Source: a virus (lineage: Duplodnaviria; Caudoviricetes). Taken from it: a stretch of DNA of 58,084 nt. The position numbers were made by a program, and so were the translations under genes. The notes beneath the pieces were generated by a model, which saw only the letters and a list, made by a program, of their open reading frames with translations, had not been told where the DNA came from and did no database searches. Positions 28,558-44,207 of the stretch are shown in pieces; positions within the stretch are counted from its first letter, which is position 1; every line of letters starts with the position of its first letter. The stretch spans positions 1 through 58,084 of IMG/VR virus record IMGVR_UViG_3300032285_005007; one strand, given 5' to 3'.

Positions 28558-29916
28558 TTGACCCTCTCTTCAATTGATGAATATGGACCATCGTTCCAGA
28601 TGAAAGTAATATCTTCTTTACTAACACATAAAGAATTTTTACAAAACATAAACGACGTACTAAGTGATGAATATTTTTCAAATCCAGCACACAAATGGGT
28701 TATAAATCAAATCATCCAATATTATGAAAAGTTTCACACAACAATTTCAATGGACATCCTAAAGGTGGAAATGAAGAAATTAGATAACGAAGTACTTAAA
28801 GTATCCGTTAAAGAGCAATTACGTGAAGCATATAAAGCAGATATTGATGATTTAGCATATGTACAAGAAGAATTTTCTACGTTTTGTAAAAACCAACAGT
28901 TGAAAAAAGCATTATTGAATAGTGTAGATTTGTTAAAAGCTGGAGATTACGATTCGATCAAATATATGATTGAATCAGCAATGAAAGCAGGACAAGATAA
29001 AAACATTGGTCACGAATATAAAAAAGATACTGAATCACGTTACCGTGAAGATCATAGATCAATTGTACCAACACCATGGGAACCAATTAATGAATTAATT
29101 CAAGGTGGTTTAGGTAATGGAGATTTAGGATTGATTTTTGGTAATCCTGGAGGAGGTAAGTCATGGACTTTAGTTGCTTTAGGTGGACATGCTGTTAAAA
29201 TGGGTTACAATGTTATCCACTACACCTTAGAGTTAAGTGAAGCATATACTGGAAGACGATATGACGCTTTCTTTACAGGAACACCAGTAGATCAATTAGA
29301 AAAACATAAAGCAGAAGTAGAAGCATTAACAGCTGATCTACCAGGAGAATTGATTATTCGTGAGTATCCTATGGGAAAAACCACAATAAATACAATAGAA
29401 TCTCACATTAAAAAGGTAATTGATTTAGGAATCCAACCAGATCTTATCTTGATAGATTACATTGATTTACTTTCAACAAGAAAAAGAAATGTTGACCGTA
29501 AGGGAGAGATTGATGATATTTATACAAGCACGAAAGGATTAGCTCGCGAATTAAACATACCAATTTGGTCAGTTTCGCAAGTAAATCGCGCGGGAGCCAA
29601 AGATGATATTATTGAAGGCGATAAAGCAGCGGGATCATACGATAAAATGATGATTACCGATTTATCGCTCTCATTATCAAGAAAAAAAGAAGATAAAGTT
29701 AACGGAACCGGAAGGCTCCATATTATGAAAAATAGATATGGAATGGATGGTTTGACTTTTCAAGTAGATGTTAATACATCAAATGGTCATATTGCAATTG
29801 GAGACCATTACGATGAAGAAGCAGATACAGTTGCACCGAAAAAACAGTCAAATGATAACTTTGACGATTTAGATAAAAAAATGTTGGCAAATAGATTTTT
29901 TGAATTAAACGCATGA
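28558..29916 (+). CDS. DnaB/gp41-like replicative helicase
   Basis: GNPGGGKS, TLELSE, IDYIDLL, SQVNR, KNRYG; TTG start after AAAAGTT. Confidence 0.92.
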   Translation: MTLSSIDEYGPSFQMKVISSLLTHKEFLQNINDVLSDEYFSNPAHKWVINQIIQYYEKFHTTISMDILKVEMKKLDNEVLKVSVKEQLREAYKADIDDLAYVQEEFSTFCKNQQLKKALLNSVDLLKAGDYDSIKYMIESAMKAGQDKNIGHEYKKDTESRYREDHRSIVPTPWEPINELIQGGLGNGDLGLIFGNPGGGKSWTLVALGGHAVKMGYNVIHYTLELSEAYTGRRYDAFFTGTPVDQLEKHKAEVEALTADLPGELIIREYPMGKTTINTIESHIKKVIDLGIQPDLILIDYIDLLSTRKRNVDRKGEIDDIYTSTKGLARELNIPIWSVSQVNRAGAKDDIIEGDKAAGSYDKMMITDLSLSLSRKKEDKVNGTGRLHIMKNRYGMDGLTFQVDVNTSNGHIAIGDHYDEEADTVAPKKQSNDNFDDLDKKMLANRFFELNA

Positions 29917-30863
29917 TAACAGAACTTAGACCCCACTACAAACCATTCGAATATCAAACAGCATTCGAATTTTACAAAGATCAACATAGAGCCCATTGGC
30001 TAGCAGACGAAGTTCCATTATCTTCAGACTTAAATGACTGGAAACTTAAATTAAGCGAATCTGAGAAAAATCTAATTGGTAATATCTTGAAATCGTTTGC
30101 TCAAACAGAGACGTATGTAAACGATTATTGGGCAACAAAGGTAGCAGTATGGTTTCCTAAACATGAAATCAAAGCTATGGCGTGTGCATTCGCTGATTTC
30201 GAATCGATACATGCTGAGGCTTATGCTCGTTTAAATGAAGAACTTGGATTAGATGATTTTGAGGCATTTATGGAAGACGAGGAAGCAAAAGCTAAAATTG
30301 ATCGTCTAGTTGAATTACCTGGAGATACATTACGTGAAAAAGCACTTTCATTAGCTATATTCTCTGCATTTACAGAAGGTGTAAATTTATTCTCTTCATT
30401 TGCAGTATTGATGTCTTTTCAATTACGTAACTTAATGAAAGGTACAGGCCAGATTGTTGAATGGAGCGTTCGTGATGAATCATTACATTCAAAAGCTGGA
30501 TGCTGGTTATTCAGAACATTAATGGAAGAAAACCCAGAGTTAAATAACCCAATGATGACAATTGATATTTACGAGGCATGTGAAATTTCAGTTGGATTAG
30601 AATTTGACTTTATTGACAAAGCATTTGAAATGGGTGAAATTGAAGGTTTAAATAAAGACCAATTGAAAAATTTCATTAAAGAACGTGCTAATCAAAAATT
30701 AATTGAATTAGGTTATAGTCCTTTATACAACGATATCGATCCAAATCTTTTAAAACAAATGGAATGGTTCGGACATTTAACAAGTGGTAAAACACACCAA
30801 GATTTCTTCGCAGGAAGAGTAACAGATTATTCAAAATCAACCGCTGACTGGAGCGATTTATAA
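29913..30863 (+). CDS. nrdB: Ribonucleotide reductase class I beta subunit
   Basis: W...EV, ESIHAEAY, EGVNLFSSF, RDESLH, DFF..RVTDY. Confidence 0.95.
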   Translation: MITELRPHYKPFEYQTAFEFYKDQHRAHWLADEVPLSSDLNDWKLKLSESEKNLIGNILKSFAQTETYVNDYWATKVAVWFPKHEIKAMACAFADFESIHAEAYARLNEELGLDDFEAFMEDEEAKAKIDRLVELPGDTLREKALSLAIFSAFTEGVNLFSSFAVLMSFQLRNLMKGTGQIVEWSVRDESLHSKAGCWLFRTLMEENPELNNPMMTIDIYEACEISVGLEFDFIDKAFEMGEIEGLNKDQLKNFIKERANQKLIELGYSPLYNDIDPNLLKQMEWFGHLTSGKTHQDFFAGRVTDYSKSTADWSDL

Positions 30864-30872
30864 AAACAACAA

Positions 30873-32600
30873 ATGAGCAAATTAAACGTAGACACAAGTA
30901 AATGGGTGAAGGGTAAAGATTTCCCTGAATGGATGGATGAGATTGGTACTTCAATCATCTCACAAGGATACTTACTCCCAGAGGAAAATGTATTTAAAGC
31001 ATTTAATCGAGTAAGTAAAGCGGCAGGACGTAGACTAAAACGTAAAGATTTAGTACCGTTTTTTGCTGAGGCAATGGAAAAAAATTGGTTGTGTCTTGCG
31101 TCACCTGTACTTTCAAATTTAGGTACTGAACGTGGTATGCCTATCTCATGTTTTGGAATTGATACAGACGATTCAATTGAAGGAATTGCATTAGCAAATT
31201 CTGAGTTGATGCGCTTATCATCTCAAGGTGGAGGTGTAGGTATTGGTCTATCTCGAATTAGAGGTAGAGGTAAAGAAATTTCTGGAAACGGTGTTTCCGA
31301 GGGTGTAGTTCCATGGGCTAAAATTTATGACTCAACTATCCTAGCAACCAACCAAGGTTCAGTTAGACGAGGAGCAGCTTCAGTCAACTTACATATCAAC
31401 CACCCAGATATTGAAGAATTTTTAATGATTCGTCGACCAAAAGGAGATGTAAATCGTCAATGTCTTAACTTACACCAATGTGTAGTAATTGATGATGATT
31501 TTATGAACAAACTAGAGGATAAAGAACCACGCGCTTTAAGATTGTGGGGAGAAATCCTTAAAACACGTTTGGAAACAGGTGAACCCTATTTGATGTTTGA
31601 AGATAATATCAACAACAATAATCCTCAAGCATACAAAAATAATAATTTGCATGTTTCGATGACAAACATTTGTTCTGAAATTGCACTTTACACAGATCCA
31701 TTACATTCATTTATTTGCTGTTTATCATCTTTGAATTTGGCTAGATGGGATGAATGGAAAGACTATAAATTTGAAAACGGAATGACCTTACCTGAATTAA
31801 CTTGTTGGTTTTTGGAAGGTGTATTACAAGAATTTATTGACAGATCCAAAAATGTAAAATTTATGGAAAACACATACCGTTCAGCAGTTAAAGGTAGAGC
31901 AATTGGTATTGGTGTTTTAGGATGGCATACATTCTTACAAGAAAAAGGCATTCCATTTGCTGGTTTACAAGCAAATTCATACACTCGAATTATGTCTCAA
32001 TTTATTGAGGAAGGAGCATTAAAAGCATCTCGTGATCAAGCAATTGAATATGGAGAACCAGAATGGTGTAAAGGTACAGGTTTAAGACACACACATCATT
32101 TAGCAATTGCCCCAACAGTATCCAATGCTAATATTTCAGGTGGTGTTTCACCTTCAATTGAACCAATTCCTGCAAATGTATTTAACTTGAAAACGGCCAA
32201 AGGTACATTTATCAAGAAAAACCCAACATTGGAACGTTTATTGGCTTCAAAAGGATTTAACATCGATAGTATTTGGGAACAAATTGCTAAAGATAAAGGT
32301 TCTGTAATGGGATTACCTGATCATATTTTATCTGCTGAAGAAAAAGAAGTATTCTTGACCTTCAAAGAAATCAACCCATACGAAATCGTTCGTCAAAATG
32401 GTATCCGTCAAAAACACATTGATCAAGCTATTTCATTGAACTTGACTTTCGACCCATCTGATTCACCAAAATATATTAGTGAGGTACATAAATTGGCTTG
32501 GAGAGAAGGCATCAAAACGTTATATTACATGCGATCAGAAAGTATTCTAAGAGGAGATAATCTTCAACGTACTGCGGATTGTGTTTCTTGCGAAGGATAG
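30873..32600 (+). CDS. nrdA: Ribonucleotide reductase class I alpha subunit (no ATP cone)
   Basis: PISCF, QG..RRGA, TNICSEI, CCLSS, APTVS, KTLYY, terminal CVSCEG. Confidence 0.95.
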   Translation: MSKLNVDTSKWVKGKDFPEWMDEIGTSIISQGYLLPEENVFKAFNRVSKAAGRRLKRKDLVPFFAEAMEKNWLCLASPVLSNLGTERGMPISCFGIDTDDSIEGIALANSELMRLSSQGGGVGIGLSRIRGRGKEISGNGVSEGVVPWAKIYDSTILATNQGSVRRGAASVNLHINHPDIEEFLMIRRPKGDVNRQCLNLHQCVVIDDDFMNKLEDKEPRALRLWGEILKTRLETGEPYLMFEDNINNNNPQAYKNNNLHVSMTNICSEIALYTDPLHSFICCLSSLNLARWDEWKDYKFENGMTLPELTCWFLEGVLQEFIDRSKNVKFMENTYRSAVKGRAIGIGVLGWHTFLQEKGIPFAGLQANSYTRIMSQFIEEGALKASRDQAIEYGEPEWCKGTGLRHTHHLAIAPTVSNANISGGVSPSIEPIPANVFNLKTAKGTFIKKNPTLERLLASKGFNIDSIWEQIAKDKGSVMGLPDHILSAEEKEVFLTFKEINPYEIVRQNGIRQKHIDQAISLNLTFDPSDSPKYISEVHKLAWREGIKTLYYMRSESILRGDNLQRTADCVSCEG

Positions 32601-32668
32601 TATATGTATGACCGTAAATAGGTTTTTTGTATTTGTTTTGTAATTGTTAAACTAATTTAAAAATAAAA

Positions 32669-34573
32669 ATGAAAAACCTTTTATTGTCTTTGTTATTCTT
32701 AGTAGTAACTTTTAACGTGTTTTCCCAAGCACCAAATGCACCAGGAAATGGTATTTATGCCATAATCCATCCAACTTATCAAGTAGCTCCTACCGCTACA
32801 GGTTTCACAACCGCTAACGTAACGTTGCAAAACACTACATTAACGAAATTTACCGCAACTCAATTTCGTGTGTTTTATGACAAAATTGCATTTACAAATG
32901 CTACAGTTGCTCTAATTGGTTCTACAACCAACTTGGACATGCAATATGTAGTTAATGCAGCTAATGGTTACATTACTATTACGCTTGTATACACAGGTGC
33001 TTCATCTACCTATACTTTAGCAGGTGGTGAAAGATTTGCAATTACATTTACACATGCCGCTCCTGCTGTATTCAATAACTTAGCTTCAATTTCCAACTTA
33101 ACTTGGACAGGTGCTGCAACATTTTCACAATATGCTGCTAAACAAAATGGTATTGATACTACTTTAATATTACACAACTATGGTGGTCAATTTATCTTAC
33201 CAACATTTACATTTGCTGGTAACTTTACAAACACAACAGGTACAGCAGCTAAAAACTTACCATTAGCATTACAAACTCGCCCTGCAGGTGGTTCTACTTG
33301 GTCACAACATTCATCTTATTTAACGGATTTAAGTGGTAACTTTACATTTACAGTTAACTTAGATACAACTTATTGGGATGTACGTTTAGCAATCCAAGGT
33401 GATACAATGGGTATTGGAAATGCTATCTCAGCAACTGATGCACAATTAATTAATCAATGGGTATTAGGCAACTCAACAATGTCAGGATTTGATTATTATA
33501 CAGCTGATGTAAATGGCTCAAATAACGTAACAATTTCAGATGCCTATGGTGTATTTGCAAAAGTATCAGGTAACTTTACAGTATGGCCAAACAACGTTAA
33601 AAACGTTAAATTCTTTACAGCAACAGAATACGCTACAATCAATAACTCCGCTACCAACTACACTTCAACTATACCAGGTGTAACTAATTTCACATATGAA
33701 ATTATAGCAGGTCAACCATCCACAGTAACTTATTATGTAGCGGTACCTGGTGATGCGAATGGAACAGGATATCATATGGCTCGTCAAACACCAATTGAAA
33801 TCTTGATTGATCCAATCCCTGGAATTGAAAACCAAATCTACAATGTAATCGATAATACAGTAGAATATGATTTCCCAACTTCACAAATTGAAGTAAACGT
33901 ACCTCATTTATCTGTACAAGCAGGAAATTTAGTTAATATTCCTGTAAAAGTATTTACAAACGGACAAGAATTGAATTCATTGCAATTTGGATTGAAATAC
34001 GATCCAACAGTACTTGAATTTAAAAATGCTTACTCTACTTCAAACGTAATGAAATGGTTAACATTTATCAACCCAAATAACGACGAAATTAAATGGGGTG
34101 GATATGATGCAACTGATAACTTGAATCCATTACAAGATGGTGATGAGGTAATGACATTGCAATTTTTAGCTCTACAACCACAAACATCATGGTTAGAAAG
34201 CCCACTTTACACAACTGATAAATTTGCAGGAGCTACTAATTCAAAAGATCTTGAAATTACACCTACAAATGGAATTTTACAAGTACTTAAATCTATTGGT
34301 GGTAAAGTAATTGCTCCAAACACAATTGAAGTAAACCCAAATCCTGTATTAAACGATGTTGCTATTACATTTAACGTAACTTCAACTACAGATGCTCATT
34401 TAGCAATCTATGATTTGCAAGGTAGAAAAGTTGTTACAATATTGGAAGGACAATTACCAGCAGGACAATTCACATATGTAAAAGATTTAGGTAAATTAGC
34501 TCAAGGAATGTATGTAGTCAATTTATCCCTAGATAACGAAAACCCAATCAATACAAAGTTAATTAAACAATAA
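32669..34573 (+). CDS. T9SS type-A cargo protein with cohesin-like and dockerin-like domains
   Basis: Signal peptide VFS-Q; ISATDA...ADVNGSNNVTISDA dockerin-like repeat; V.IPV.....LNSLQFGLKYDPTVLEF cohesin-like; CTD NPNP...IYDLQGRKV...L.QGMY...KLIK. Confidence 0.8.
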   Translation: MKNLLLSLLFLVVTFNVFSQAPNAPGNGIYAIIHPTYQVAPTATGFTTANVTLQNTTLTKFTATQFRVFYDKIAFTNATVALIGSTTNLDMQYVVNAANGYITITLVYTGASSTYTLAGGERFAITFTHAAPAVFNNLASISNLTWTGAATFSQYAAKQNGIDTTLILHNYGGQFILPTFTFAGNFTNTTGTAAKNLPLALQTRPAGGSTWSQHSSYLTDLSGNFTFTVNLDTTYWDVRLAIQGDTMGIGNAISATDAQLINQWVLGNSTMSGFDYYTADVNGSNNVTISDAYGVFAKVSGNFTVWPNNVKNVKFFTATEYATINNSATNYTSTIPGVTNFTYEIIAGQPSTVTYYVAVPGDANGTGYHMARQTPIEILIDPIPGIENQIYNVIDNTVEYDFPTSQIEVNVPHLSVQAGNLVNIPVKVFTNGQELNSLQFGLKYDPTVLEFKNAYSTSNVMKWLTFINPNNDEIKWGGYDATDNLNPLQDGDEVMTLQFLALQPQTSWLESPLYTTDKFAGATNSKDLEITPTNGILQVLKSIGGKVIAPNTIEVNPNPVLNDVAITFNVTSTTDAHLAIYDLQGRKVVTILEGQLPAGQFTYVKDLGKLAQGMYVVNLSLDNENPINTKLIKQ

Positions 34574-34576
34574 GCT

Positions 34577-34894
34577 ATGTCAGAAGAAACAAACGAAGAC
34601 ACTTGGTCAGGCCTTAAAAAAACGATCATTGGAACTCTTACTACAGTTATTACTGGAGGTGGTGTATGGTTAGGAACAGCTCTTTATGGTGGCGGACACG
34701 ATGAAGAACCTAAAGAAGAAACCAAAACAGAACAACCTGCATCAGCTGCTCCTGTAATTGTAAACGTTCAACAAAACCAAGAAAACAAACAAAAAGTTGA
34801 AAATGGTGGTGGAACAGTAATTCGTGAGCGAGTAATTGAAAAACCAGCTCAACCAGCTGCACCTGTACAGAAACCACAAGAGGAATCATGGTAA
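34577..34894 (+). CDS. Small membrane-anchored protein
   Basis: One hydrophobic segment followed by a Pro/Glu/Gln-rich tail. Confidence 0.7.
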   Translation: MSEETNEDTWSGLKKTIIGTLTTVITGGGVWLGTALYGGGHDEEPKEETKTEQPASAAPVIVNVQQNQENKQKVENGGGTVIRERVIEKPAQPAAPVQKPQEESW

Positions 34895-35616
34895 GATTTT
34901 TATTTATATTATTGACGCTAGGGCTGTTTTCTTGCAAAACAGCTCAAGCTCAAGGTGGTATAGGTACTGTTAAAACAGAACAATATCAAGCTGATTTTGA
35001 GAAAAAACAGTCACTTGATGTTGTATCGGACTATGATGGTTCTATTCAAGTTCCTATCCAATTGCTTAAAATTGGAATCAACGAGGAACTATATGAAATG
35101 TATCCTGAACTTAAAGACAAACGTGTTGGTTTAGGTGTAACAAACATTGTGATCGAATACCTTGAATATACTAATCGCTTTACGTTTACTGAGGAAAAAG
35201 AAGACATTAAGCAACGTATGATTGCTCAAGATAAAGCATCTGATAAAGGTATTTCATCAAACAAAATAGAGGTAAAAGGAAATGTAGTACTTGCAAAGTA
35301 TTTCGTTTACATTGAAGTTTATGATTTCAGTGTATCCGAAGACGAAATAGTTAAAGTAAATGGTCAACAAACCACTACTCAAACAACACGTTTAGGGTTG
35401 CAGATTAAATTCGTAGATGCTGAAACCGGCCAAATCATTGTAGGTTCAGGTTTAGGCGAGTCAAACACGGTAAAAATGTCGTCTATATTGGGAGATGTTA
35501 CCGATGAGGTAAAATTCAACCAATCTACAATTGGAATCTCAACTAAAAAAGCACTAGAAACTGCATCATCCCGAGTTGTATCACGATTAATTAGCAAAGG
35601 TGTATTCAAGAATTGA
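34888..35616 (+). CDS. CsgG/HfaB-like exported protein, possibly a lipoprotein
   Basis: LFSC lipobox or AQA-Q site; VGLGV.NI..E.L..TNRF and LGLQIKFVDAETGQII.GSG.GE. Confidence 0.7.
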   Translation: MVRFLFILLTLGLFSCKTAQAQGGIGTVKTEQYQADFEKKQSLDVVSDYDGSIQVPIQLLKIGINEELYEMYPELKDKRVGLGVTNIVIEYLEYTNRFTFTEEKEDIKQRMIAQDKASDKGISSNKIEVKGNVVLAKYFVYIEVYDFSVSEDEIVKVNGQQTTTQTTRLGLQIKFVDAETGQIIVGSGLGESNTVKMSSILGDVTDEVKFNQSTIGISTKKALETASSRVVSRLISKGVFKN

Positions 35617-37142
35617 AAAAATACTTGTTTATATTGTTCCTGCTGTGTATATTTAATATAGACGCACAGACGTATAATTATAGTTATACTGACCCTTGTA
35701 CTGGGAATTTAAAAACAATAGTAGTTCCGATAAATGGTAATGTTACTGTTGCATATTACGGTGAATTAGGGTCATTTAACGCAAATGATTTTACAAACGG
35801 AAATTTTGAGGCGTGGGCAAGCAACATATTTAACCAATATGGGCAAGATTCACCATGTTCTCAAATTGTGGGGTTGGGAACGGCGGTTAACGTGACACAA
35901 AGTACAACTTTAAATGTTATGGGGATTTTAAATTCCCTATCAACAATAGCGAGTTTGACGGGTGGAGCAACAAATGTTCTAGGAGGAGCAGTTGGATCAG
36001 TATCCAATTCTTCTGGAGATGGAGAAAGTAACAATAATAACAACAATAACAAAAATGGAAACAACAGTGTCAGTAGCAATCCTAGTAATCCTAGTGGGAG
36101 TGGGGGTAGCGTCTCTAATCAGTCTAATCCAAACTCGCAGACCCAAAGTAGCGGAACGCAAGAAGGAACAGGAACAAGCAGTAGCGAAACTAGTGGAAAC
36201 CCTGAAGGAAGCGGGAGTGCCGGTTCTACCTCATCCACTGAAGGAGGAGGAAGTGAAGGAACAACCACAAGTAGTGGAGGTGAAAGTGGAGGAACCAGTA
36301 GTGATCCCGGTAGTGGAAGCACCAGTGGAAGTAGTAGTGGTGGAAATACCGGTGGTACTTCAGGAAACGGTAACGGTGGAGAAACCAGTTCGAATCAAGA
36401 AGGCTCGCAAACCACGTCAGAAAAAACAGAAGGCAAAACAAATATAACAGCCGGAGCTTCAACAACAGCTAAATCAACACCAACCTCTAAAGAGGGAGGT
36501 AAACCAAGTGTAGTCGCGTCAAGCGACTTCGTTGGTTTCAACTTCAGAAATTCAGACGTTAAATTAGGAGCCAAAGCAACTGGTGGTTATACAGCCATGA
36601 GATGGGATGGAAAACGAAGTTGGGGTGCATTAGCAGATTATACTTCAGCCTTAAAAGGTCCAAACATCACAGGTTTCTATGCTTGGATGAGACCTAAATC
36701 AGTCATTTTACTTTCAGGAACTGCAACTATTGGATTTGAAGGAAACAAATCCTTATATGGTACTATAGCATTTGGACAAATGTTCAAATTTAAAAAAGCA
36801 CCTACCCTCAAATTGGTTTATATGGCTACGGCATCATATGGTCAAGTCTATAGAGTATCATTTTTAGGAACAGCAGTAATTGGAGGTATAATGTATGATA
36901 TCAAAGTAGGTAAACGCATAGATATCAAGTTAATGGATTTAATGGTTTATGCTCCATATGTTTCATATTATAATGATGTTTTATTAAAGTCACCTTATGT
37001 AATGCTTCCTAGCATTGGAACAAACATAGGTATAACCAAGAAATTCAAATTTAACATAAACGCAGGAGGTGCTTGGGATTTAAAAACCGCAGCTCTAAAC
37101 TATACAGTAACATGTGGTACAAGAATATTGGTAGGACAATAA
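35613..37142 (+). CDS. Exported protein with Ser/Gly/Asn linker and putative C-terminal beta-barrel
   Basis: Signal peptide IDA-Q; ~170 aa low-complexity region; amphipathic beta-strands in the last ~210 aa. Confidence 0.65.
   Translation: MKKYLFILFLLCIFNIDAQTYNYSYTDPCTGNLKTIVVPINGNVTVAYYGELGSFNANDFTNGNFEAWASNIFNQYGQDSPCSQIVGLGTAVNVTQSTTLNVMGILNSLSTIASLTGGATNVLGGAVGSVSNSSGDGESNNNNNNNKNGNNSVSSNPSNPSGSGGSVSNQSNPNSQTQSSGTQEGTGTSSSETSGNPEGSGSAGSTSSTEGGGSEGTTTSSGGESGGTSSDPGSGSTSGSSSGGNTGGTSGNGNGGETSSNQEGSQTTSEKTEGKTNITAGASTTAKSTPTSKEGGKPSVVASSDFVGFNFRNSDVKLGAKATGGYTAMRWDGKRSWGALADYTSALKGPNITGFYAWMRPKSVILLSGTATIGFEGNKSLYGTIAFGQMFKFKKAPTLKLVYMATASYGQVYRVSFLGTAVIGGIMYDIKVGKRIDIKLMDLMVYAPYVSYYNDVLLKSPYVMLPSIGTNIGITKKFKFNINAGGAWDLKTAALNYTVTCGTRILVGQ
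36010..36500 (+). repeat. Low-complexity Asn/Ser/Gly/Thr-coding region
   Basis: AAC/AAT run and AGT/GGA-rich repeats inside 35613..37142. Confidence 0.8.
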
Positions 37143-38110
37143 TATTACTCATATTATTTTCATGTAACTTGTTTTCCCAAACATTTACATATTCTGGTTA
37201 CATCAAAAATGCTGATGGTACAGGTGCTGTAAATGTACCTGTTAAATTATATAGACGTACAACTCCAACTTTAACTGGGTTTACTTCACAAAACAACTAC
37301 AATGGACATTCATATTATCGTTCTACTGGTTCGGCATATTGGACAGATGCAAGAACTGCTTGTACTAATATGGGGGGACATTTAGTTACAGTAACAACTG
37401 CTGCTGAAAATACCTTCATCTACAACTTATGGCCTTCGGGATGGATTGGTTTAACTGATGAAGTCACAGAAGGTACTTGGAAATGGGTTACCGGAGAAAC
37501 ATATTCTTACTCTTCCTGGAACCCAGGAGAACCAAATAATGCGGGAAATGAAGATTATGTACAATTTGTTGGGGGTGGTAAATGGAATGACTTACCTAAT
37601 AATCAATCATTACCTTACGTAATTGAATTTGACTATATAAACGATTACACTCCATGGGTGTTATACCAAACAGTATACACTAACTCCTCAGGATTATATT
37701 CAATTTCCCAATCAACGAACCCAGCAGTTGAATGGTATATTCAAATAGACGCCCCTACTCCAGTGACATCCCACACTATAACAGATTTTAGAGGTGTAAC
37801 CAATGTAGTACTAGGAACAACATCTGCAAAAAGTATAAACTGGTTGCAATACGATACAAACAATGATGGAAAAATAAGCGTCTCAGATGCTATCTACATC
37901 AATAGAAAACAAAACGGGCTAGCAACATTCTCTTACACATCTAGAATATTTACCCCAACACAATATACTTCTTTAACAACAGGTACAACCGATTTGCGCT
38001 CCACTATACCAGGTGTAAGCTCAATTACAATTACATCTCCTGTAAGTGGTACCACTACAGGAAACTATTATTTAATCGCTCCTGGGTACAAGGGGCAAGT
38101 AACCTATTAA
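37112..38110 (+). CDS. Exported C-type lectin domain protein with dockerin-like repeat
   Basis: YNGHSYY...W.DA..AC...GGHL, WIGLTD...EG.W.W, W.PGEPNN, WND; DTNNDGKISVSDA; start set at ATG 37112. Confidence 0.85.
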   Translation: MWYKNIGRTIILLILFSCNLFSQTFTYSGYIKNADGTGAVNVPVKLYRRTTPTLTGFTSQNNYNGHSYYRSTGSAYWTDARTACTNMGGHLVTVTTAAENTFIYNLWPSGWIGLTDEVTEGTWKWVTGETYSYSSWNPGEPNNAGNEDYVQFVGGGKWNDLPNNQSLPYVIEFDYINDYTPWVLYQTVYTNSSGLYSISQSTNPAVEWYIQIDAPTPVTSHTITDFRGVTNVVLGTTSAKSINWLQYDTNNDGKISVSDAIYINRKQNGLATFSYTSRIFTPTQYTSLTTGTTDLRSTIPGVSSITITSPVSGTTTGNYYLIAPGYKGQVTY

Positions 38111-38111
38111 T

Positions 38112-38603
38112 ATGAAACTAATACTTTTATTACTACTTCCATTATTTGCTTGCGCACAAGAAGGCGTTACAAACTTTCAACGAGCCAACAACATCAACAC
38201 CACCATATCCTGTGTTTATGTAGATACCGTGTTTGTAACCGCAAAGGTAAGGGAACTAGGCACACGTGATATTCGCTTTGGTATCAAACAAATTACTGAA
38301 GATGCTTTATCTGAAAAATATTGTTTGGATGATAAAGGTGATGCTATTAAAGTTGAAATATATTACTTTGGTATTCCAAAAAATACCATTCGAGTAATGG
38401 GGATAGAACGTTCAAATGTAATTACTCAAGTTGGAGTGCGTTTATATCATAATAACAGCAAATATGAAGGTATAGGTGAATCCGAAACCGAAATTACAGC
38501 AGTTTTAATCGAGGTAAAAGAAGGTGCCATTCCATTTGAAAAAATGACAGTATCCTCTGCCCTAAAAAAAGCAATAAATGAAGCTATTAGCAAAATGCCT
38601 TAG
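38112..38603 (+). CDS. Exported protein, possibly a distant CsgG-like paralog
   Basis: Signal peptide ACA-Q; G.GES...F....S.ALKKA echoes the C-terminus of 34888..35616. Confidence 0.5.
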   Translation: MKLILLLLLPLFACAQEGVTNFQRANNINTTISCVYVDTVFVTAKVRELGTRDIRFGIKQITEDALSEKYCLDDKGDAIKVEIYYFGIPKNTIRVMGIERSNVITQVGVRLYHNNSKYEGIGESETEITAVLIEVKEGAIPFEKMTVSSALKKAINEAISKMP

Positions 38604-39030
38604 TATATTTTTCCCATTTATACTCTCAGCTCAAATCAAAATAGATGATGTTGGAGATGGATGGAAAGATAAAGTTGAACAAGCAATAGAGGTTGTAAAA
38701 CAATACGACCCTGAAAAATATACTTTATTAAAGGAAAATTGTGAGCATATCAGCTACTCACTTTTATCTTTCTCCACTACCGAAAATGGAACTACGATTT
38801 TAATTGCTCAAAAAGAAATAATAGCGGGAAATATAAACGATTTAGCTGCTACTTTAGTACATGAGTCTTTACATTTATATTTTTGGAGAAACAATATGAT
38901 ACTCCCAGAAAATGAAGAAGAAATACTATGTTACACATATGAACTTGAATTGCTTTTTAAAATACCTGATGTAGAACCGTGGTTAATAAGTCATGCAAAA
39001 AAGCAGATTGAACTTTATACAAATCCTTAA
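38578..39030 (+). CDS. Exported putative zinc metallopeptidase
   Basis: Signal peptide LSA-Q; LVHESLH...EE. Confidence 0.6.
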   Translation: MKLLAKCLSIFFPFILSAQIKIDDVGDGWKDKVEQAIEVVKQYDPEKYTLLKENCEHISYSLLSFSTTENGTTILIAQKEIIAGNINDLAATLVHESLHLYFWRNNMILPENEEEILCYTYELELLFKIPDVEPWLISHAKKQIELYTNP

Positions 39031-39053
39031 TATTTATAAACAAAAGAACGCTT

Positions 39054-39302
39054 ATGAGAAATTTTTTCAATCATCTATTCGATGACAACAATTCAATCAA
39101 CGAAAAATCAGTTGTTGGATTTATAGCATTTTTTATGCTATGTGTAGCACTAATAGTAGATTTAGTTACTGGTGCTTATGGTAACCCATTATTGATCAAC
39201 AAATTTATTTTTGATGGCTTTATGGTAATTGTATTAGGGTCATTCGGAATTGCTTCCGTTGACAAGTGGATTAACAAAAAAAATGATAAAAACGAAGAGT
39301 AA
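39054..39302 (+). CDS. Putative holin
   Basis: 82 aa, two hydrophobic segments, charged C-terminus; directly before the endolysin; late motif at 39030-39038. Confidence 0.6.
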   Translation: MRNFFNHLFDDNNSINEKSVVGFIAFFMLCVALIVDLVTGAYGNPLLINKFIFDGFMVIVLGSFGIASVDKWINKKNDKNEE

Positions 39303-39913
39303 TGAGTTTAAAAAGTTTACAAGAAAAAATTGGAGTAACAGCTGATGGAGCTTTTGGTCCAGGTACGTTAAAAGCCGCAATGGCGTTTTACAAATTAACC
39401 CCAGTACGTGCAGCACATTTCTTTGCACAAACAGCACATGAAACTGGTGAGTATAAATTATTTAGTGAAAACCTAAACTATTCAGCAGCAGGTTTGCAAG
39501 GTACTTTTGGAAAATATTTCCCTGGAACATTGGAAGAATCTTACGCTCGTAACCCTGAAAAAATTGCTAACCGCGTTTATGCAGACAGAATGGGTAACGG
39601 AAACGAAGCTTCAGGTGACGGATGGAAATACAGAGGTCGTGGTGCATTGCAATTGACTGGAAAAGCAAATTATAAAGCATTTGCAGACTATTTAGGAAAA
39701 CAAGAAATCATGGAAACACCGGATTTAGTTGCTACAACATATGCATTTGAATCAGCAATGTTCTTCTTTGACAAAAACAAATTATGGTCAATTTGTGATC
39801 AAGGTGTAAATGAAGCTGCTATTTTAGCATTGACAAAACGCATCAACGGAGGTACTAATGGTTTAGACCACAGAAAATTGTTAACTAACAAATATTACGG
39901 ATACGTAAAATAA
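39302..39913 (+). CDS. GH19 endolysin with N-terminal peptidoglycan-binding motif
   Basis: ADGAFGPGT, FFAQTAHETG, ENLNYS, YRGRGALQLTG, TKRINGGTNGL. Confidence 0.92.
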   Translation: MSLKSLQEKIGVTADGAFGPGTLKAAMAFYKLTPVRAAHFFAQTAHETGEYKLFSENLNYSAAGLQGTFGKYFPGTLEESYARNPEKIANRVYADRMGNGNEASGDGWKYRGRGALQLTGKANYKAFADYLGKQEIMETPDLVATTYAFESAMFFFDKNKLWSICDQGVNEAAILALTKRINGGTNGLDHRKLLTNKYYGYVK

Positions 39914-39935
39914 TTGTTTCTCTAGAAATAATTTG

Positions 39936-39962
39936 GAGCCCCATTTAGGGGCTCTTTTTTTC
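39936..39962 (+). terminator. Intrinsic terminator after the endolysin
   Basis: GAGCCCC-ATTTA-GGGGCTC followed by T8. Confidence 0.9.
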
Positions 39963-39993
39963 CTTATATACTTTCCAATATTTATCATCCGAC

Positions 39994-42900
39994 ATGGAGA
40001 AGTTTTTAAAGAATCAACAAATACCCTTAACGCAAGTTATTGACCCCAATACAGGTCAGGCATATTATTCTACACAAAACGTTGTCTATCAAGATAAAAA
40101 TAATACAGGGGTAACATATCTTAAAAATGTAATAGTTGATCAAGCAACTTCTGCATCTTATTTTAGTGGAAGTGTTGCAAATGCTGTATCTGCTTCATAT
40201 GCTTTAACGGCATCTTATGTTGTAGGTGGTATAGGATCCCCGGGTGGACCAAATACATCAGTACAATTTAATAAAAATGGCAATTTTAGTGGATCAACTA
40301 ATTTTACATTCAATAGTGCTTCGAACTCTTTAACTCTAACAGGTTCCTTAAATGTAACTGGTTCAACTTTACAAATTGGAAATAATACTTTAGCAGGTAA
40401 TACTACATTATCCGGAAGTATCATTATATCAGGCTCTAATTCAAACCCCGTACAACCTACTATTAAAATATATGGGGATATGGAAACAAACGGTGTAATT
40501 AAATTTATGCCCGTTGTTAAAAGTGTTGATCCTGCAATATCAGCATCATATATTTATGTTTCCGGTTCTACCAATGACTTATATTTTAGCCAAAATGGTT
40601 CAGGATATTCCAATACAACTCGTTTACGTTGGATAGAAGGTAATTTATACACAGGATTACTTTCTGGTGGGATATTAAGTTCAACCCCTGGTTCTAGAAC
40701 ATTCAATTTATCTTCAGGTTCAGGTATTATTGTAACATTAAATGCTACAACTTCATCCGCAGACCCATTCCCAACAATACAATATTTAAATTGGGGTAAC
40801 TTTACCAATCAACCATTAGTATATTCAGGATCTGCAAGATTAACATATGTAAGTGTAAATTCAGCAGGAGCAATTGATCAATCCCCCAACCCTGTTGGAT
40901 ATACTGATCCCACACAGTGGGATAATCAAATTGAAATTGGTGTAGTACTGCATTTATCCGGTGCTGTATCTACAGGTGTTTATAATGCACCTCAAGTAGC
41001 ATATGGGTTAGCTCAACGCACAGATGATTTTGTTAGAGCATTTGGTCCTATTAAAATATCAGGACACGTATTGCAACCTAGTGGATCTACTTTAGGATTA
41101 ATTAAAACATCAGGGAATGCTTACAATAATGGAGCTAATTATGTAGTTAATCCAAATCACCCTTCAACTGTATCGGATCCTGCTACTTCAGTAAGTAAAA
41201 TTTATCGATACTATGTATCGGGCTCTACACCAGTAATTAACACTGGAGTAGCAAATGCAGGATTTACAGGGATTGATCCTTCAAAATACAACAATAACGG
41301 TACTTTAGCTTCTGTACCTGGTGGGAAATATACAATTCAACGTGTATTTTGGATCCCAAATTCACCAACCAACGCATTTTTAGTTTATTATGGAAATGAT
41401 ACATATAATAGTGCTGATACCGCTCAACTTGCTATCCCTATTGAACCCTTTACAGAAGCCCCAAATACAGCACAAAATGCTATTTTATTAGGATATGTAA
41501 TTGCAAGTGGGAATGAAACAAATTTACAAAATGCTCTTATAATCCAAGCTGGATTATTTAGATCTATAAATGGAGTAGGATCATCTGGTACAACTCCCGC
41601 AATTAATACATTTGCAGGTTTAGCAGATGTATCTGTTGCAAGTAGAACGGTCGGTGATCTATCATATTATAATGGATCCTTATGGATTAACTCAAAAATC
41701 CTATCAGGTTCATATGGTATATCAGGTAGTTTAAATGTATCCCAAGGTATAACAGGTTCATTTAGCGGTTCAATTACTGCTCCTGGTTCAACAACTCAAA
41801 TTGTGTTTAATAATGGAGGTGTTTTAGGAGCAACCGGTAGTTTTGTATATAGCGGCTCACGTGTTGGTATTGGTAAACCAGACCCAAATGCTACATTAGA
41901 TATTAGTGGATCAGAACTTATCTCAGGATCCACAACATGGGTCCTTCCAGGATATGCTAATGGATATATTTCACCGGGTACTGATGGAATTTCCATAGGA
42001 AATAGCAATTCAGGAGTTCATATTCGTATACGAAATTCAAATAGAACCGGGTTAGACCAAAGTGTAGGTATAGGAAGTCCTAGCTTTGGATGGACAACAT
42101 CCCAAAACGTTACCATTAAAACTGGAGGGACTACTTCAGGTTACCAAGGTATATTAGTTGGTAATGGAACAAATAATAATATTTTTTCAGTTCAAGGAGA
42201 TAGTAGGGTAGGAATAAACCTAGCTACAGCTACTTCTGCTTTACATGTTCAAGGCACAGGTGCAACTTCTTCTACAACTGCATTGACAGTACAAAATGCA
42301 AACGCTAGTGCGTCATTGGTTGTATTAGATAACACTTATGTAGGATTAGGAAAATCCCCAAGTTACCCTATAGATGTTGCCCTTACTAATGGAGGAAATG
42401 CTAATTCAGCTCTATTTGCTTCGGGAATCCACCCAGATGGAAGAGCAATTTTATATGGAAAAGCTAATACAAATACAGAGCAATTAATATATTGGTGGCA
42501 TAGTGGAGGTATAGGAATAGGTACCGGAGGATCAACAAGAGGTGGAGCTGTTTCTTATGTAGGAGATACAAGTTATTATGGTCCTGCTCATGGTATGTAT
42601 TTTATGGAAACTGGAACTACTTTTGGTCCCGTTAATATAAAATATAGACTTGGAATAACTACCAGTACAACAAATACTCAATTTGCTTCAGGGGTTTCAA
42701 ATAACTCAACAAATATAGAATCTAATACTTTTACATATGTTGCTAAAAGTCATACTTTCTATACAGGAACCACTTCAGGTAATCAATCTCTCCCATCCCA
42801 ATTTATCCCTTTATATTTATCGGATTCTGGTTCTGTTGGTATAGGAACAACAAACCCTACATCTACATTAGATATATCAGGTTCAGGTCGCTTTACAAAC

Positions 42901-43038: not shown

Positions 43039-43388
43039 TGGCAACTAGAATACCCTTTCAATGGAATACCGCTAACTTCAATTGGGACGCAACCAACCCA
43101 ACTGATGGGAAAACATACCCACCAAATGAAATAGTTACCGGAACTAATTTATGGAATGATTGTGCTTTGATCATTGAGATTATCAATGCAATGCAAGGGG
43201 GAGCTAGCCATGATGATTATTTTGATAAAAAACCTGAAAAGAAAAAGCAGTTTATCAAACTACTTTGCCAAGTTCAAGGAAAAGAATACAAAGAAACTAA
43301 AGAGGTACATAAGACCAAAATATTTATATCAGACATAAAACTAGTAGCTAAAGAAGTACTAGGAGTAGACGTAAAAATAGACAGATAA
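43038..43388 (+). CDS. Hypothetical protein
   Basis: 116 aa, translationally coupled (TAATG) on both sides. Confidence 0.75.
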   Translation: MATRIPFQWNTANFNWDATNPTDGKTYPPNEIVTGTNLWNDCALIIEIINAMQGGASHDDYFDKKPEKKKQFIKLLCQVQGKEYKETKEVHKTKIFISDIKLVAKEVLGVDVKIDR

Positions 43389-43933: not shown

Positions 43934-43941
43934 AATAAGTT

Positions 43942-44193: not shown

Positions 44194-44207
44194 AATATTT
44201 ATAATCA

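What the first reader, a model, noticed from the sequence alone, without database searches (positions are those of the whole stretch)
32669..39030. Phage-encoded T9SS/cohesin-dockerin/CsgG/lectin envelope operon directly upstream of the lysis genes
Seen: seven tightly coupled genes, all with export or membrane signals. They encode a T9SS type-A cargo with cohesin-like and dockerin-like domains, a small anchored protein, a CsgG-like protein, a Ser/Gly-linker beta-barrel candidate, a C-type lectin with a dockerin-like loop but no recognisable T9SS CTD, a second CsgG-like protein and an HExxH peptidase. Established: cohesin-dockerin pairs assemble cellulosomes, CsgG forms an outer-membrane pore, and T9SS is characteristic of Bacteroidota. 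Inference: the phage builds a modular surface complex on the infected cell, in which the CTD-bearing scaffold docks the lectin and possibly itself. Possible roles are aggregating new hosts, particle attachment, superinfection exclusion or grazer avoidance.
Basis: partly seen in the sequence, partly recalled or inferred. Interest (0 to 1): 0.88.

Follow-up and report, generated by a model that had tools for sequence, protein, structure and literature searches.

The report
Phage envelope module beside lysis genes
A large phage of Flavobacterium-type bacteria carries seven tightly packed genes for exported proteins in one run with its lysis genes; they probably build a complex in the infected cell's outer envelope, the block is widespread in related phages, and its job has never been tested.

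Summary
Window 32669-39030 has seven co-oriented genes, overlapping or at most 3 nt apart. All seven carry a Sec signal or a membrane anchor.

- g1: T9SS type-A CTD and Cohesin, both above Pfam/NCBIfam cut-offs.
- g3: no family hit itself, but CsgG by transitive homology and by fold (Z 13.9).
- g6: a short paralogue of g3.
- g4: conserved N-domain, long S/G/T/N linker, probable C-terminal outer-membrane barrel (low-confidence model).
- g5: C-type lectin with invariant EPN and WND.
- g7: invariant HExxH.
- Dockerin scores lie below the cut-off in both g1 and g5.

The block is phage-only and conserved: g1-g6 in 56 of 56 related viral loci with enough flank. It forms one terminator-bounded unit with a holin-like gene and the endolysin. 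In relatives these lysis genes lie beside or inside the block (endolysin 45 of 56), even at about 40% g3 identity. The g5 head is swapped in relatives (lectin, LamG insert, GEVED, PA14).

My best reading (0.45) is an envelope/egress module coupled to lysis.

Precedents exist for phage CsgG/CsgF and for phage T9SS cargo, but I found none for this module. The scan noted the same module before on other DNA (31 findings, at least 28 genomes).

The parts
32669..34573 (+). g1, 634 aa. Sec signal (Gln at +1), N-terminal domain of unknown family, beta-sandwich plus dockerin-like Ca-loop module (about residues 186-375), cohesin (407-534), T9SS type-A C-terminal sorting domain (556-634).
   Evidence: Por_Secre_tail 36.5>27, TIGR04183 37.9>23, Cohesin 29.5>24.1, Dockerin_1 17.1<22.9; family counts 20/20, 16/20, 8/20..
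34577..34894 (+). g2, 105 aa. Bitopic inner-membrane protein: acidic N-terminus, Lys-Lys, one highly conserved Gly/Thr-rich helix, a periplasmic tail of about 65 aa rich in Pro/Gln/Glu/Lys, ending in an invariant Trp (..E-E/D-S/P-W).
   Evidence: 21 sequences; invariant W10, G27-G29, W31, W105. No family. Topology inferred from the positive-inside rule.
34888..35616 (+). g3, 242 aa. CsgG-fold protein with a lipobox-like L-F-S-C leader. It is the most conserved protein of the block.
   Evidence: 18/37 CsgG, 6/37 LpoB; pLDDT 78; CsgG E 1e-8; Z 13.9, rmsd 3.2, 174 aligned; Atlas lead.
35613..37142 (+). g4, 509 aa. Signal peptide, conserved N-domain of about 100 aa with two invariant Cys, a low-complexity S/G/T/N linker of about 170 aa (length varies among relatives), and a C-terminal all-beta domain of about 210 aa, probably an outer-membrane barrel.
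   Evidence: alignment. (AF2 mean pLDDT 43; 13 strands at 299-505, pLDDT 50-75). (the Foldseek rows listed are beta-barrel membrane proteins; best E 4.4e-4). No Pfam/NCBIfam hit.
37073..38110 (+). g5, 345 aa as listed (likely start at 37112). Signal peptide, Ca-dependent C-type lectin head with invariant EPN (153-155) and WND (171-173), then the same C-terminal module of about 155 aa as in g1, with a canonical D-x-N-x-D-G-x-I-x-x-x-D loop.
   Evidence: (Lectin_C 65.1 bits; Dockerin_1 21.5<22.9), (99.5%, E 4e-22; Lectin_C 19/19, Laminin_G_3 9/19, Dockerin_1 8/19).
38112..38603 (+). g6, 163 aa. Secreted short paralogue of g3 (CsgG/LpoB-type core without g3's insert and N-extension). Invariant Cys after the leader.
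   Evidence: alignment; hhalign 93.3%, E 2.6e-7 over 115 columns. No Pfam hit in 23 of 23 members.
38578..39030 (+). g7, 150 aa. Secreted small zincin-like protein with invariant H95-E96-x-x-H99 and E114-E115.
   Evidence: Weak zincin hits among homologues (SprT-like 5/22, Tox-MPTase2 5/22). Atlas leads only.
39054..39302 (+). Holin-like gene, 82 aa, with two hydrophobic helices and a charged C-terminus. In 14 of 56 relatives its homologue lies between g2 and g3.
   Evidence: No family. 'Holin' is inferred from features and position.
39302..39913 (+). Endolysin (GH19-type).
   Evidence: Glyco_hydro_19 31.6>25.5; phrog_181 E 3.4e-62; 74% DNA identity to the immuto endolysin.
39935..39955 (+). 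Intrinsic terminator-like hairpin (8 pairs, 6 G-C, then a T run) that closes the g1-to-endolysin unit.
   Evidence: It is the strongest + strand site in 29500-44500, and no comparable site lies inside 32669-39913.

Best explanation
The seven genes are a conserved, phage-only envelope module that belongs to the lysis (egress) unit of immuto-like phages of Bacteroidota.

Proposed course of events:
1. Late in infection, Sec exports six of the proteins and inserts g2 into the inner membrane.
2. g3 (CsgG fold, mostly lipidated), its short paralogue g6 and the tethered barrel protein g4 assemble at the outer membrane.
3. g2 reaches them from the inner membrane with its periplasmic tail. Its very conserved membrane helix may contact the holin-like protein.
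4. g1 leaves through the host's type IX secretion system.
5. g5 is an exchangeable sugar-binding subunit that carries the same Ca-loop module as g1. g7 is a small secreted zincin-like protein.

I think the complex acts at or just before lysis. It would open or weaken the outer membrane in the slot where other phages have spanins. At the same time it would bind the surface glycans of the lysing cell.

Shown: domain identities, export signals, conservation as a unit, one transcription unit with holin and endolysin, repeated linkage to the lysis genes, and head swapping in g5. Inferred: localisation, who binds whom, and the function itself.
For: (1) Operon. Gaps or overlaps of a few nt run from g1 to the endolysin. 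The one strong terminator lies directly after the endolysin.

(2) Linkage to lysis genes. Of 80 related viral loci, 56 had enough flank. In these, g1-g6 were present in 56/56, g7 in 53/56, an endolysin homologue within 7 kb in 45/56 and the holin-like gene in 17/56. In 14 of the 56 the holin-like gene lies between g2 and g3. The endolysin lies upstream reversed, upstream forward or downstream in different lineages.

(3) Linkage persists in distant relatives. L087 (g3 66% identical) reads g2, TM protein, holin-like, g3, small OMP-like, endolysin. L088 (59%) reads holin-like, TM protein, endolysin, g6, g1, g2, g3, g4. In L089 and L090 (about 39-42%) the holin-like gene and endolysin lie downstream or upstream of the block.

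(4) g3 is a CsgG-fold protein. With the endolysin it is the most conserved protein of the region against phage immuto: g3 71%, endolysin 79%, NrdA 62%, g1 26-34%, g4 25%.

(5) In g2 the membrane helix is the best conserved part, and the C-terminal Trp is invariant.

(6) The block is phage-only. One genome was scanned for each of 185,579 species. Only 4 loci were found, all MAG contigs that carry the same block.

(7) Precedent. Phage CsgG/CsgF of Melnitz and pelagimyophages was proposed by its authors to regulate lysis (PMC9004378, passages read).

(8) No other spanin-like pair lies beside the lysis genes in the window: ribonucleotide reductase lies upstream and a tail fibre gene downstream.
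Against: - No experiment and no structure of a complex exists.
- g2 and g3 do not look like classical spanins. By eye, g2's tail is Pro/Gly-rich and not a coiled coil. g3 is 242 aa and highly conserved, whereas o-spanins are tiny and evolve fast.
- The distal part of g3's long hairpin is polar (S-E-D-E, Q-Q-T-T-T-Q-T-T). That argues against a lipid-embedded CsgG-type barrel.
- A T9SS-secreted cohesin protein and an exchangeable lectin have no obvious role in membrane breaching. They fit a surface or glycan function better.
- In phage immuto the block is not next to endolysin gp191, though another annotated endolysin, gp236, lies about 6 kb downstream.
- In L088 a TM protein with a possible coiled coil sits between holin and endolysin. 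It could be the real spanin there (read by eye).
- Synteny among related phages is partly inherited, so the 45 of 56 are not independent events.
Confidence: 0.45

Rival explanations
1. The phage dresses the living infected cell with a modular surface complex. g1 is exported by the T9SS and stays on the surface. Its cohesin docks the dockerin-like module of the lectin g5, and possibly its own. g3, g4 and g6 provide anchoring or export. The complex serves superinfection exclusion, receptor masking, adhesion or aggregation of new hosts.
For: CTD and cohesin score above cut-offs and are conserved. g1 and g5 share one homologous module with a Ca-binding loop. The g5 head is exchanged among relatives: C-type lectin, lectin with LamG insert, GEVED, PA14, unknown. 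Such swapping is typical of proteins that track variable surface glycans. EPN/WND predicts Ca-dependent binding of mannose-type sugars (the motif rule is recalled). The window also encodes a T9SS type-B cargo (CHU_C 50.1 bits). Phage-encoded T9SS cargo has been reported before (PMC7468147, passages). 'Sibling capture' was proposed for phage curli genes (PMC7029224, passages).
Against: Dockerin_1 is below the cut-off in both proteins. g5 has no CTD and no evident route across the outer membrane. The lectin and g7 are missing from the deepest relatives, while g1-g4 and g6 stay with the lysis genes. Co-transcription with holin and endolysin leaves little time for a function on the living cell. 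In L087 and L088 the cohesin protein lacks a CTD of its own.
Confidence: 0.3
2. The block is a small phage-encoded outer-membrane export route. The CsgG-fold g3 (with g6) and the barrel g4 would form a channel, as in curli (CsgG), Fap (FapF) or Pel (PelBC) export. Through it the proteins without a CTD (g5, g7), or the unfolded S/G/T/N-rich part of g4, would reach the surface.
For: g3 matches CsgG best, then the ring-forming PelC, FlgT/LPHT and LptE. g4 has the order N-domain, long disordered linker, barrel of about 12-13 strands. FapF and autotransporter barrels are among its Foldseek matches. g5 and g7 have signal peptides but no CTD.
Against: There is no CsgF, CsgE or CsgA/B-like partner and no Pfam hit for g4. 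g3's hairpin tips are polar. The CsgG channel passes unfolded chains only (recalled), whereas g5 is a folded Ca-dependent lectin. The g4 model is of low confidence.
Confidence: 0.1
3. The genes have no joint function. They are separate accessory genes (morons) that share a permissive spot next to the lysis genes.
For: g5 heads and the presence of g7 vary. Phage genomes often collect accessory genes near lysis cassettes (general knowledge).
Against: The order g1-g2-g3-g4 is invariant in 56 of 56 loci and persists at about 40% g3 identity and 27% g1 identity. Start and stop codons overlap. g3/g6 and g1/g5 are paralogous pairs within the block. g3 alone has 5081 clusters at 90% identity in public data.
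Confidence: 0.05

Closest known systems
Flavobacterium phage vB_FspM_immuto (NC_055915) gp013-gp019
   Same: Same block after the ribonucleotide reductase genes: lectin gp013, gp014+gp015 (g1, annotated 'cohesin domain-containing protein'), gp016 (g2), gp017 (g3, 71% identical), gp018 (g4), gp019 (g6). It is a cultured phage with a known host, Flavobacterium sp. LMO8.
   Different: The lectin comes first. g1 is split into two ORFs. No g7 homologue was found. The block is not adjacent to endolysin gp191. All parts other than 'lectin' and 'cohesin' are annotated hypothetical. None of the 12 papers that name the phage (10 of them listed) deals with this block, judged by title and abstract.
Phage-encoded CsgG/CsgF of pelagimyophages and Methylophilales phage Melnitz (PMC7029224, PMC9004378; passages read)
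   Same: A CsgG-type outer-membrane protein encoded by a large myophage whose host lacks curli. The authors propose a role in lysis timing ('gated secretin or pinholin') or in 'sibling capture'.
   Different: Those are recognisable CsgG plus CsgF, close to proteobacterial ones. Here g3 has no direct Pfam hit and no CsgF. The partners differ (T9SS cargo, tethered barrel, lectin, zincin), the hosts are Bacteroidota, and the block is interleaved with holin and endolysin.
Curli channel CsgG (PDB 4uv2, 4uv3, 6l7a) and fold relatives PelC, FlgT/LPHT ring, LptE, TraT
   Same: g3 model against CsgG: Foldseek E 1.2e-8; VIA-align Z 12.1-13.9, rmsd 2.9-4.0 A, 171-195 residues aligned. Most homologues have a lipoprotein-type leader.
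   Different: 12-14% identity. Oligomer and membrane hairpins are untested, and the hairpin tips are polar. The next fold group lies lower (Z 10.1 and below).
Phage-encoded T9SS type-A cargo ('Cryophage', Bellas et al. 2020, PMC7468147; passages read)
   Same: Phage genes with a T9SS type-A sorting domain, variable between phage variants, proposed to alter the host surface.
   Different: Those cargoes are single enzymes or a PA14 protein. No cohesin scaffold, CsgG-fold protein, barrel or link to lysis was described there.
Two-component spanins (lambda Rz/Rz1 type; recalled knowledge)
   Same: An inner-membrane type II protein (g2) and an outer-membrane lipoprotein (g3) are encoded by overlapping genes inside or beside the holin-endolysin cassette.
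   Different: By eye g2 has no coiled coil. g3 is large, globular, CsgG-fold and highly conserved. Extra parts are present (g4, g6, g1).
Cellulosome-type cohesin-dockerin scaffolds
   Same: A cohesin domain scores above the cut-off. A Ca-loop module occurs on two proteins, one of them with exchangeable heads.
   Different: Dockerin scores are below the cut-off and only one canonical Ca loop is present. There are no glycoside hydrolase subunits. The context is a phage and T9SS, and binding is untested.

Membership tests
T9SS type-A cargo (g1) | C-terminal sorting domain matching TIGR04183 / PF18962 above the curated cut-off | tested here: met
   37.9 bits (cut-off 23) and 36.5 bits (cut-off 27), residues 556-634. 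20 of 20 homologues match.
T9SS type-A cargo (g1) | N-terminal Sec signal peptide | tested here: met
   Read directly: a hydrophobic leader ending ..F-S-Q, with Gln20 invariant. No SignalP was available.
T9SS type-A cargo (g1) | Secretion depends on a host T9SS | not testable with these tools
   The host is unknown. Relatives infect Flavobacterium and lie in Flavobacterium, Sediminibacterium and Bacteroidetes MAG contigs.
Cohesin (PF00963; g1) | Domain score above Pfam's gathering cut-off | tested here: met
   29.5 bits against 24.1, residues 407-534. 16 of 20 homologues match, best E 1.3e-11.
Cohesin (PF00963; g1) | Binds a dockerin partner | not testable with these tools
   Needs a binding assay or a solved complex.
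Dockerin type I (g1 and g5 modules) | Domain score above Pfam's gathering cut-off | tested here: not met
   17.1 bits (g1) and 21.5 bits (g5) against 22.9. 8 of 20 and 8 of 19 homologues match at E<=0.01, best 7.8e-5 and 2.8e-4.
Dockerin type I (g1 and g5 modules) | Two tandem Ca-binding loop-helix segments | tested here: inconclusive
   g5 has one canonical loop (invariant D261, N263, D265, I268, D272). g1 has one near-canonical loop. By eye the first segment is degenerate in both.
CsgG family (g3) | Match to Pfam PF03783 | tested here: not met
   No hit for g3 itself at E<=1. 18 of 37 aligned remote relatives do hit CsgG, best E 1.9e-17, and 6 of 37 hit LpoB. So g3 belongs to the superfamily but not to the family as Pfam defines it.
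CsgG family (g3) | CsgG fold | tested here: met
   AF2 pLDDT 78. Foldseek: CsgG E 1.2e-8. VIA-align Z 13.9, rmsd 3.2 A, 174 residues aligned. The next fold group has Z 10.1 or less.
CsgG family (g3) | Nonameric ring with two membrane hairpins per subunit forming a 36-strand pore | not tested
   No oligomer prediction was possible. By eye the hairpin tips are polar.
CsgG family (g3) | Curli partners CsgF/CsgE and substrates CsgA/CsgB encoded alongside | tested here: not met
   No curli family was found in any of the nine proteins of the unit.
C-type lectin CRD (g5) | Lectin_C domain above the cut-off, with the Ca/sugar motifs EPN and WND | tested here: met
   65.1 bits against 22.6. E153-P154-N155 and W171-N172-D173 are invariant in 19 of 19 sequences. 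The meaning of the motifs is recalled knowledge.
Zincin metallopeptidase (g7) | HExxH with a third zinc ligand, and a match to a peptidase family | tested here: inconclusive
   HExxH and E114/E115 are invariant. Only sub-threshold zincin hits were found (SprT-like 5 of 22, Tox-MPTase2 5 of 22). No PDB sequence match.
Outer-membrane beta-barrel / type Va autotransporter-like (g4) | C-terminal transmembrane beta-barrel | tested here: inconclusive
   The model's mean pLDDT is 43. Residues 299-505 form 13 strands at pLDDT 50-75. The Foldseek rows listed are beta-barrel membrane proteins, best E 4.4e-4, TM up to 0.62 against 12-strand KdgM and NanC.
PorP/SprF-type T9SS barrel (g4) | Match to the PorP/SprF models of Pfam or NCBIfam | tested here: not met
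   No family at E<=1 for g4 in Pfam or NCBIfam. None at E<=0.1 in 21 of 21 homologues apart from one chance FAD_syn hit.
Two-component spanin (g2 + g3) | Type II inner-membrane protein plus outer-membrane lipoprotein, from adjacent or overlapping genes in the lysis cassette | tested here: met
   g2 has one TM helix, N-in by the positive-inside rule. g3 has a lipobox-like Cys in 14 of 19 sequences. The genes overlap by 7 nt. Lysis genes lie adjacent or interleaved.
Two-component spanin (g2 + g3) | Periplasmic coiled coil in the i-spanin; small Pro-rich o-spanin | not tested
   No coiled-coil program was run. By eye g2's tail is Pro/Gly/Gln-rich, and g3 is a 242-aa globular protein.

The most novel reading that the evidence does not exclude
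The block is a so far unknown machine by which phages of Bacteroidota open the outer membrane at release, taking the place of spanins. It would consist of an inner-membrane tether (g2) coupled to the holin, a CsgG-fold ring (g3, g6) and a tethered barrel (g4). A T9SS-addressed protein (g1) would engage or jam the host's very large T9SS translocon. An exchangeable lectin would fix the complex to strain-specific surface glycans.
Probability: 0.2. Interest if true: 0.9.

Novelty: new variant of a known kind. Interest (0 to 1): 0.68.

Why it matters
How phages of Bacteroidota get through the outer membrane at lysis is poorly known. Here a large, abundant phage group keeps a fixed set of exported proteins welded to its holin and endolysin genes. 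g3 alone has 5081 clusters at 90% identity in public data and at least 150 relatives among IMG/VR contigs.

If the block is an egress device, it would be a new answer to the last step of lysis. If it is a surface display of exchangeable lectins, it would be a new way for a virus to re-dress its host through the host's own type IX secretion system. Either way it joins two isolated precedents, phage CsgG and phage T9SS cargo, into one system. It can be tested in a cultured pair: phage immuto and Flavobacterium sp. LMO8.

Tried and rejected
- Complex prediction of the g1 cohesin (residues 395-548, alignment A6) with the g5 C-terminal module (186-345, A7) gave 'no answer': score 0.16, mark 0.32, controls not folded. 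It counts neither for nor against binding.
- Profile searches of g3 (A1) and g7 (A3) against PDB sequences gave one chance hit at E 0.13 and nothing, respectively.
- PHROGs had no family for g1-g6 and only two unnamed weak ones for g7.
- Pfam on the 21 g4 homologues and the 23 g6 homologues gave nothing meaningful.
- hhalign of the g1 N-domain (21-190) against its cohesin was not significant: probability 0.3%, E 0.22. I therefore do not claim a second cohesin.
- Atlas look-ups gave leads only, and no structure search was possible: CsgG/LpoB clusters at 0.93-0.94 for g3; DUF6647 and eCIS_core at 0.93 for g7.
- Distant g3 relative P0142 found nothing in viral contigs.
- Sequencing runs. No run held half of the words of the stretch, and the RNA runs held 0.06. 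Laid contigs of a freshwater metatranscriptome (X2) include near-identical 151-210 nt pieces over the g2/g3 junction, g3, the holin-like gene and the holin/endolysin junction. These are Logan contigs from an RNA library that may contain DNA, so they do not show transcription. I do not use them as evidence.
- The sigma-70-type promoter scan found no excess over shuffles (56 found, 61.3 expected) and does not suit Bacteroidota promoters.
- Literature searches that found no description of this block: 0 papers; 5, none on phage modules. I judged papers naming immuto by title and abstract only.
- My split of g5-position ORFs into 'lectin head' and 'other head' was imprecise, because the best HSP of LamG-insert forms is the C-terminal part. 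I quote no counts from it.
- Rows dropped. 24 of the 80 viral loci were left out of the synteny count for short flanks. For alignment A5 I picked 28 near-full-length rows out of the 150 listed, leaving out fragments and fusion proteins. The alignments A1-A4 and A6-A8 are spread samples of about 20 from 41-64 unique homologues.

Full report
WHAT IS THERE. The window is an IMG/VR virus record of 58 kb, estimated 36% complete. All genes longer than 150 aa lie on the + strand. Its closest cultured relative is Flavobacterium phage vB_FspM_immuto, a 160-kb myovirus.

At 32669-39030 lie seven + strand genes. Two junctions have gaps (3 nt and 1 nt) and four overlap. A holin-like gene follows 23 nt later, and a GH19 endolysin overlaps that gene by 1 nt. 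The strongest terminator-like hairpin of the region sits at 39935-39955, directly after the endolysin. Nothing comparable lies inside 32669-39913. The nine genes are therefore best read as one transcription unit.

THE PARTS.
- g1 (634 aa) scores above curated cut-offs for the T9SS type-A sorting domain (TIGR04183 37.9 against 23; PF18962 36.5 against 27) and for Cohesin (29.5 against 24.1). Dockerin_1 is below the cut-off (17.1 against 22.9). Across 20 homologues the counts are CTD 20/20, Cohesin 16/20 and Dockerin_1 8/20.
- g2 (105 aa) has no family. Twenty-one homologues share an acidic N-terminus, Lys-Lys, a very conserved Gly/Thr-rich helix, a Pro/Gln/Glu/Lys-rich tail and an invariant C-terminal Trp. 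I infer a topology with the N-terminus inside and the tail in the periplasm.
- g3 (242 aa) has no direct family hit. A profile search over 1.84 billion representatives found 256 relatives at E<=0.001. I aligned g3 with 8 close and 28 remote near-full-length relatives. Of these 37 sequences, 18 hit Pfam CsgG (best E 1.9e-17) and 6 hit LpoB. The AlphaFold model (pLDDT 78) matches CsgG best: Foldseek E 1.2e-8; VIA-align Z 13.9, rmsd 3.2 A, 174 residues. It stands above PelC, FlgT/LPHT, LptE and TraT, which reach Z 10.1 at most.
- g6 (163 aa) is a shorter paralogue of g3 (hhalign 93%, E 2.6e-7).
- g4 (509 aa) has three parts. The first is a conserved N-domain with two invariant Cys. The second is an S/G/T/N-rich linker; length variation among relatives is largely there (homologues 420-736 aa). 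The third is an all-beta C-terminal domain. The model is poor overall (pLDDT 43) but predicts 13 consecutive strands at 299-505. The Foldseek rows listed for it are beta-barrel membrane proteins, including 12-strand KdgM, NanC, EspP and intimin, and also FapF. No PorP/SprF or other family is detectable by sequence.
- g5 is a C-type lectin (65.1 bits) with invariant EPN and WND. By recalled knowledge these motifs mark Ca-dependent binding of mannose-type sugars. Its C-terminal 155 residues are homologous to residues 186-375 of g1 (hhalign 99.5%, E 4e-22). That module holds the dockerin-like Ca loop (21.5 bits, just below 22.9).
- g7 (150 aa) keeps H95-E96-x-x-H99 and E114-E115 in all 22 sequences aligned. 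Only sub-threshold zincin hits were found.
- In g1, g4, g6 and g7 the residue after the leader is an invariant Gln, and in g5 a nearly invariant one. This is the Bacteroidetes 'Q-rule' for signal peptidase I substrates (PMC5837995 and PMC10653852, abstracts). It has also been noted for phage proteins of Porphyromonas (PMC10367356, passages).

CONSERVATION AND CONTEXT. g3 has 5081 clusters at 90% identity in the 5.8-billion-protein collection. All 120 listed rows are unnamed or 'hypothetical' and carry no Pfam domain. A scan of IMG/VR found 150 relatives, of which the best 80 loci were kept. Fifty-six of the 80 had at least 2.6 kb upstream and 5.2 kb downstream of g3.

In those 56 loci the counts are:
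- g1, g2, g3, g4 and g6, always in the order g1-g2-g3-g4: 56/56.
- g5, at least its C-terminal module: 56/56.
- g7: 53/56.
- An endolysin homologue within the locus: 45/56.
- The holin-like gene: 17/56, of which 14 lie between g2 and g3.

The endolysin lies upstream reversed, upstream forward or downstream in different lineages.

One genome was scanned for each of 185,579 prokaryote species. Only four loci appeared. All are MAG contigs (two Flavobacterium, one Sediminibacterium, one uncultured Bacteroidetes) and all carry the same block. The block is therefore phage-borne and not a recent host gene.

Distant relatives keep the link to lysis:
- L087 reads g6, g1, a small lipoprotein, g2, a TM protein, holin-like, g3, a 139-aa OMP-like protein, endolysin.
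- L088 reads holin-like, a TM protein, endolysin, g6, g1 (without a CTD), a stand-alone lipoprotein with a weak CTD match (20.1 bits, below 27), g2, g3, g4.
- L089 and L090 (g3 about 39-42% identical, g1 27%) have g1, g2, g3, g4, an unrelated or PA14-bearing protein, and g6. The holin-like gene and endolysin lie downstream in one and upstream in the other.

The deep core is thus g1, g2, g3, g4 (or a small OMP) and g6, together with the lysis genes. The lectin head and g7 are exchangeable. At the g5 position relatives carry a C-type lectin, a lectin with a LamG insert (9 of 19), a GEVED domain (2 of 7 other ORFs tested), PA14 (1 of 7) or nothing recognisable (4 of 7).

HOW IT MOST LIKELY WORKS. 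I rank first (0.45) an envelope module that acts at egress. An inner-membrane tether (g2), a CsgG-fold outer-membrane protein (g3) with its paralogue (g6), and a tethered barrel (g4) would form an envelope-spanning assembly. It would be made together with holin and endolysin and would help to open the outer membrane, in the slot where other phages have spanins. g1, g5 and g7 would deal with surface glycans.

For this reading speak:
- the operon structure;
- the repeated linkage to the lysis genes, which survives rearrangement;
- the high conservation of g3 (71% to immuto), close to that of the endolysin (79%) and above NrdA (62%);
- the conserved membrane helix of g2;
- the published idea that phage CsgG regulates lysis in Melnitz.

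Against it speak:
- the un-spanin-like look of g2 and g3;
- the polar hairpin tips of g3;
- the absence of any obvious lytic role for a T9SS-secreted cohesin protein and a swappable lectin.

It lacks a passing dockerin score, a route for g5 across the outer membrane, and time on the living cell if the block is truly co-expressed with the holin. The two readings could both be partly right. A dedicated export channel (0.10) and unrelated morons (0.05) are less likely.

WHAT IS KNOWN. Phage-encoded T9SS cargo was reported once (Bellas et al. 2020). Phage CsgG/CsgF is known in pelagimyophages and Melnitz. BFVD holds one 'CsgG' of an uncultured phage that matches the g3 model (E 1.8e-8). The immuto record names only 'lectin' and 'cohesin'. 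My searches found no description of the block as a unit. Supplements were closed.

The scan itself has noted the same module on other DNA: 31 findings in at least 28 genomes, with follow-ups that reached similar verdicts. These are not independent evidence. From them I took the lead to the Melnitz papers and the 'swappable head' reading, both of which I checked.

VERDICT. This is a new multi-part variant of known kinds (phage CsgG, phage T9SS cargo). Its function is untested, and it can be tested directly in immuto and Flavobacterium sp. LMO8.

Noticed in passing
window 7009-9210 (+): A 733-aa protein in the tail-gene region carries a T9SS type-B sorting domain (CHU_C 50.1 bits, cut-off 27) and a PKD-like domain (35.4 bits), with a weak SprB repeat. 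The phage thus encodes cargo for both T9SS classes.
   Followed up: partly
L088 6343-6699 and L087 6204-6575: In two distant relatives the cohesin protein ends without a CTD. A separate lipoprotein of 118-123 aa follows; in L088 it gives a weak Por_Secre_tail match (20.1 bits, below 27). This may be a split-off CTD-like domain.
   Followed up: partly
proteins P0223, P0255, P0226, P0227, P0232: Remote bacterial relatives of g3 occur as fusions. By eye, some have an N-terminal Ser/Thr-kinase-like part, a membrane helix and a Pro-rich linker before the g3-like domain. Others have the g3-like lipoprotein domain before a caspase-like part. No HMM was run on them.
   Followed up: no
L002 8914-10738 (immuto gp014 + gp015): In phage immuto the g1 homologue is annotated as two ORFs (363 and 243 aa). 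The split falls between the Ca-loop module and the cohesin. This may be a real split or a sequencing frameshift.
   Followed up: no
window 27852-28505 (+): A 217-aa ORF between replication genes gives sub-threshold GIY-YIG (20.5 against 22.6) and NUMOD1 (20.2 against 22.8) matches. It may be a homing endonuclease.
   Followed up: no
window 35992-36447 (+), inside g4: A 151-aa ORF lies in another frame across the low-complexity linker of g4. It is most likely an artefact of the repetitive composition.
   Followed up: no
L087 6905-7477: A 190-aa membrane protein with an acidic D-G-D-G-type Ca-loop-like stretch sits between g2 and the holin-like gene in one relative. It has no Pfam hit.
   Followed up: partly
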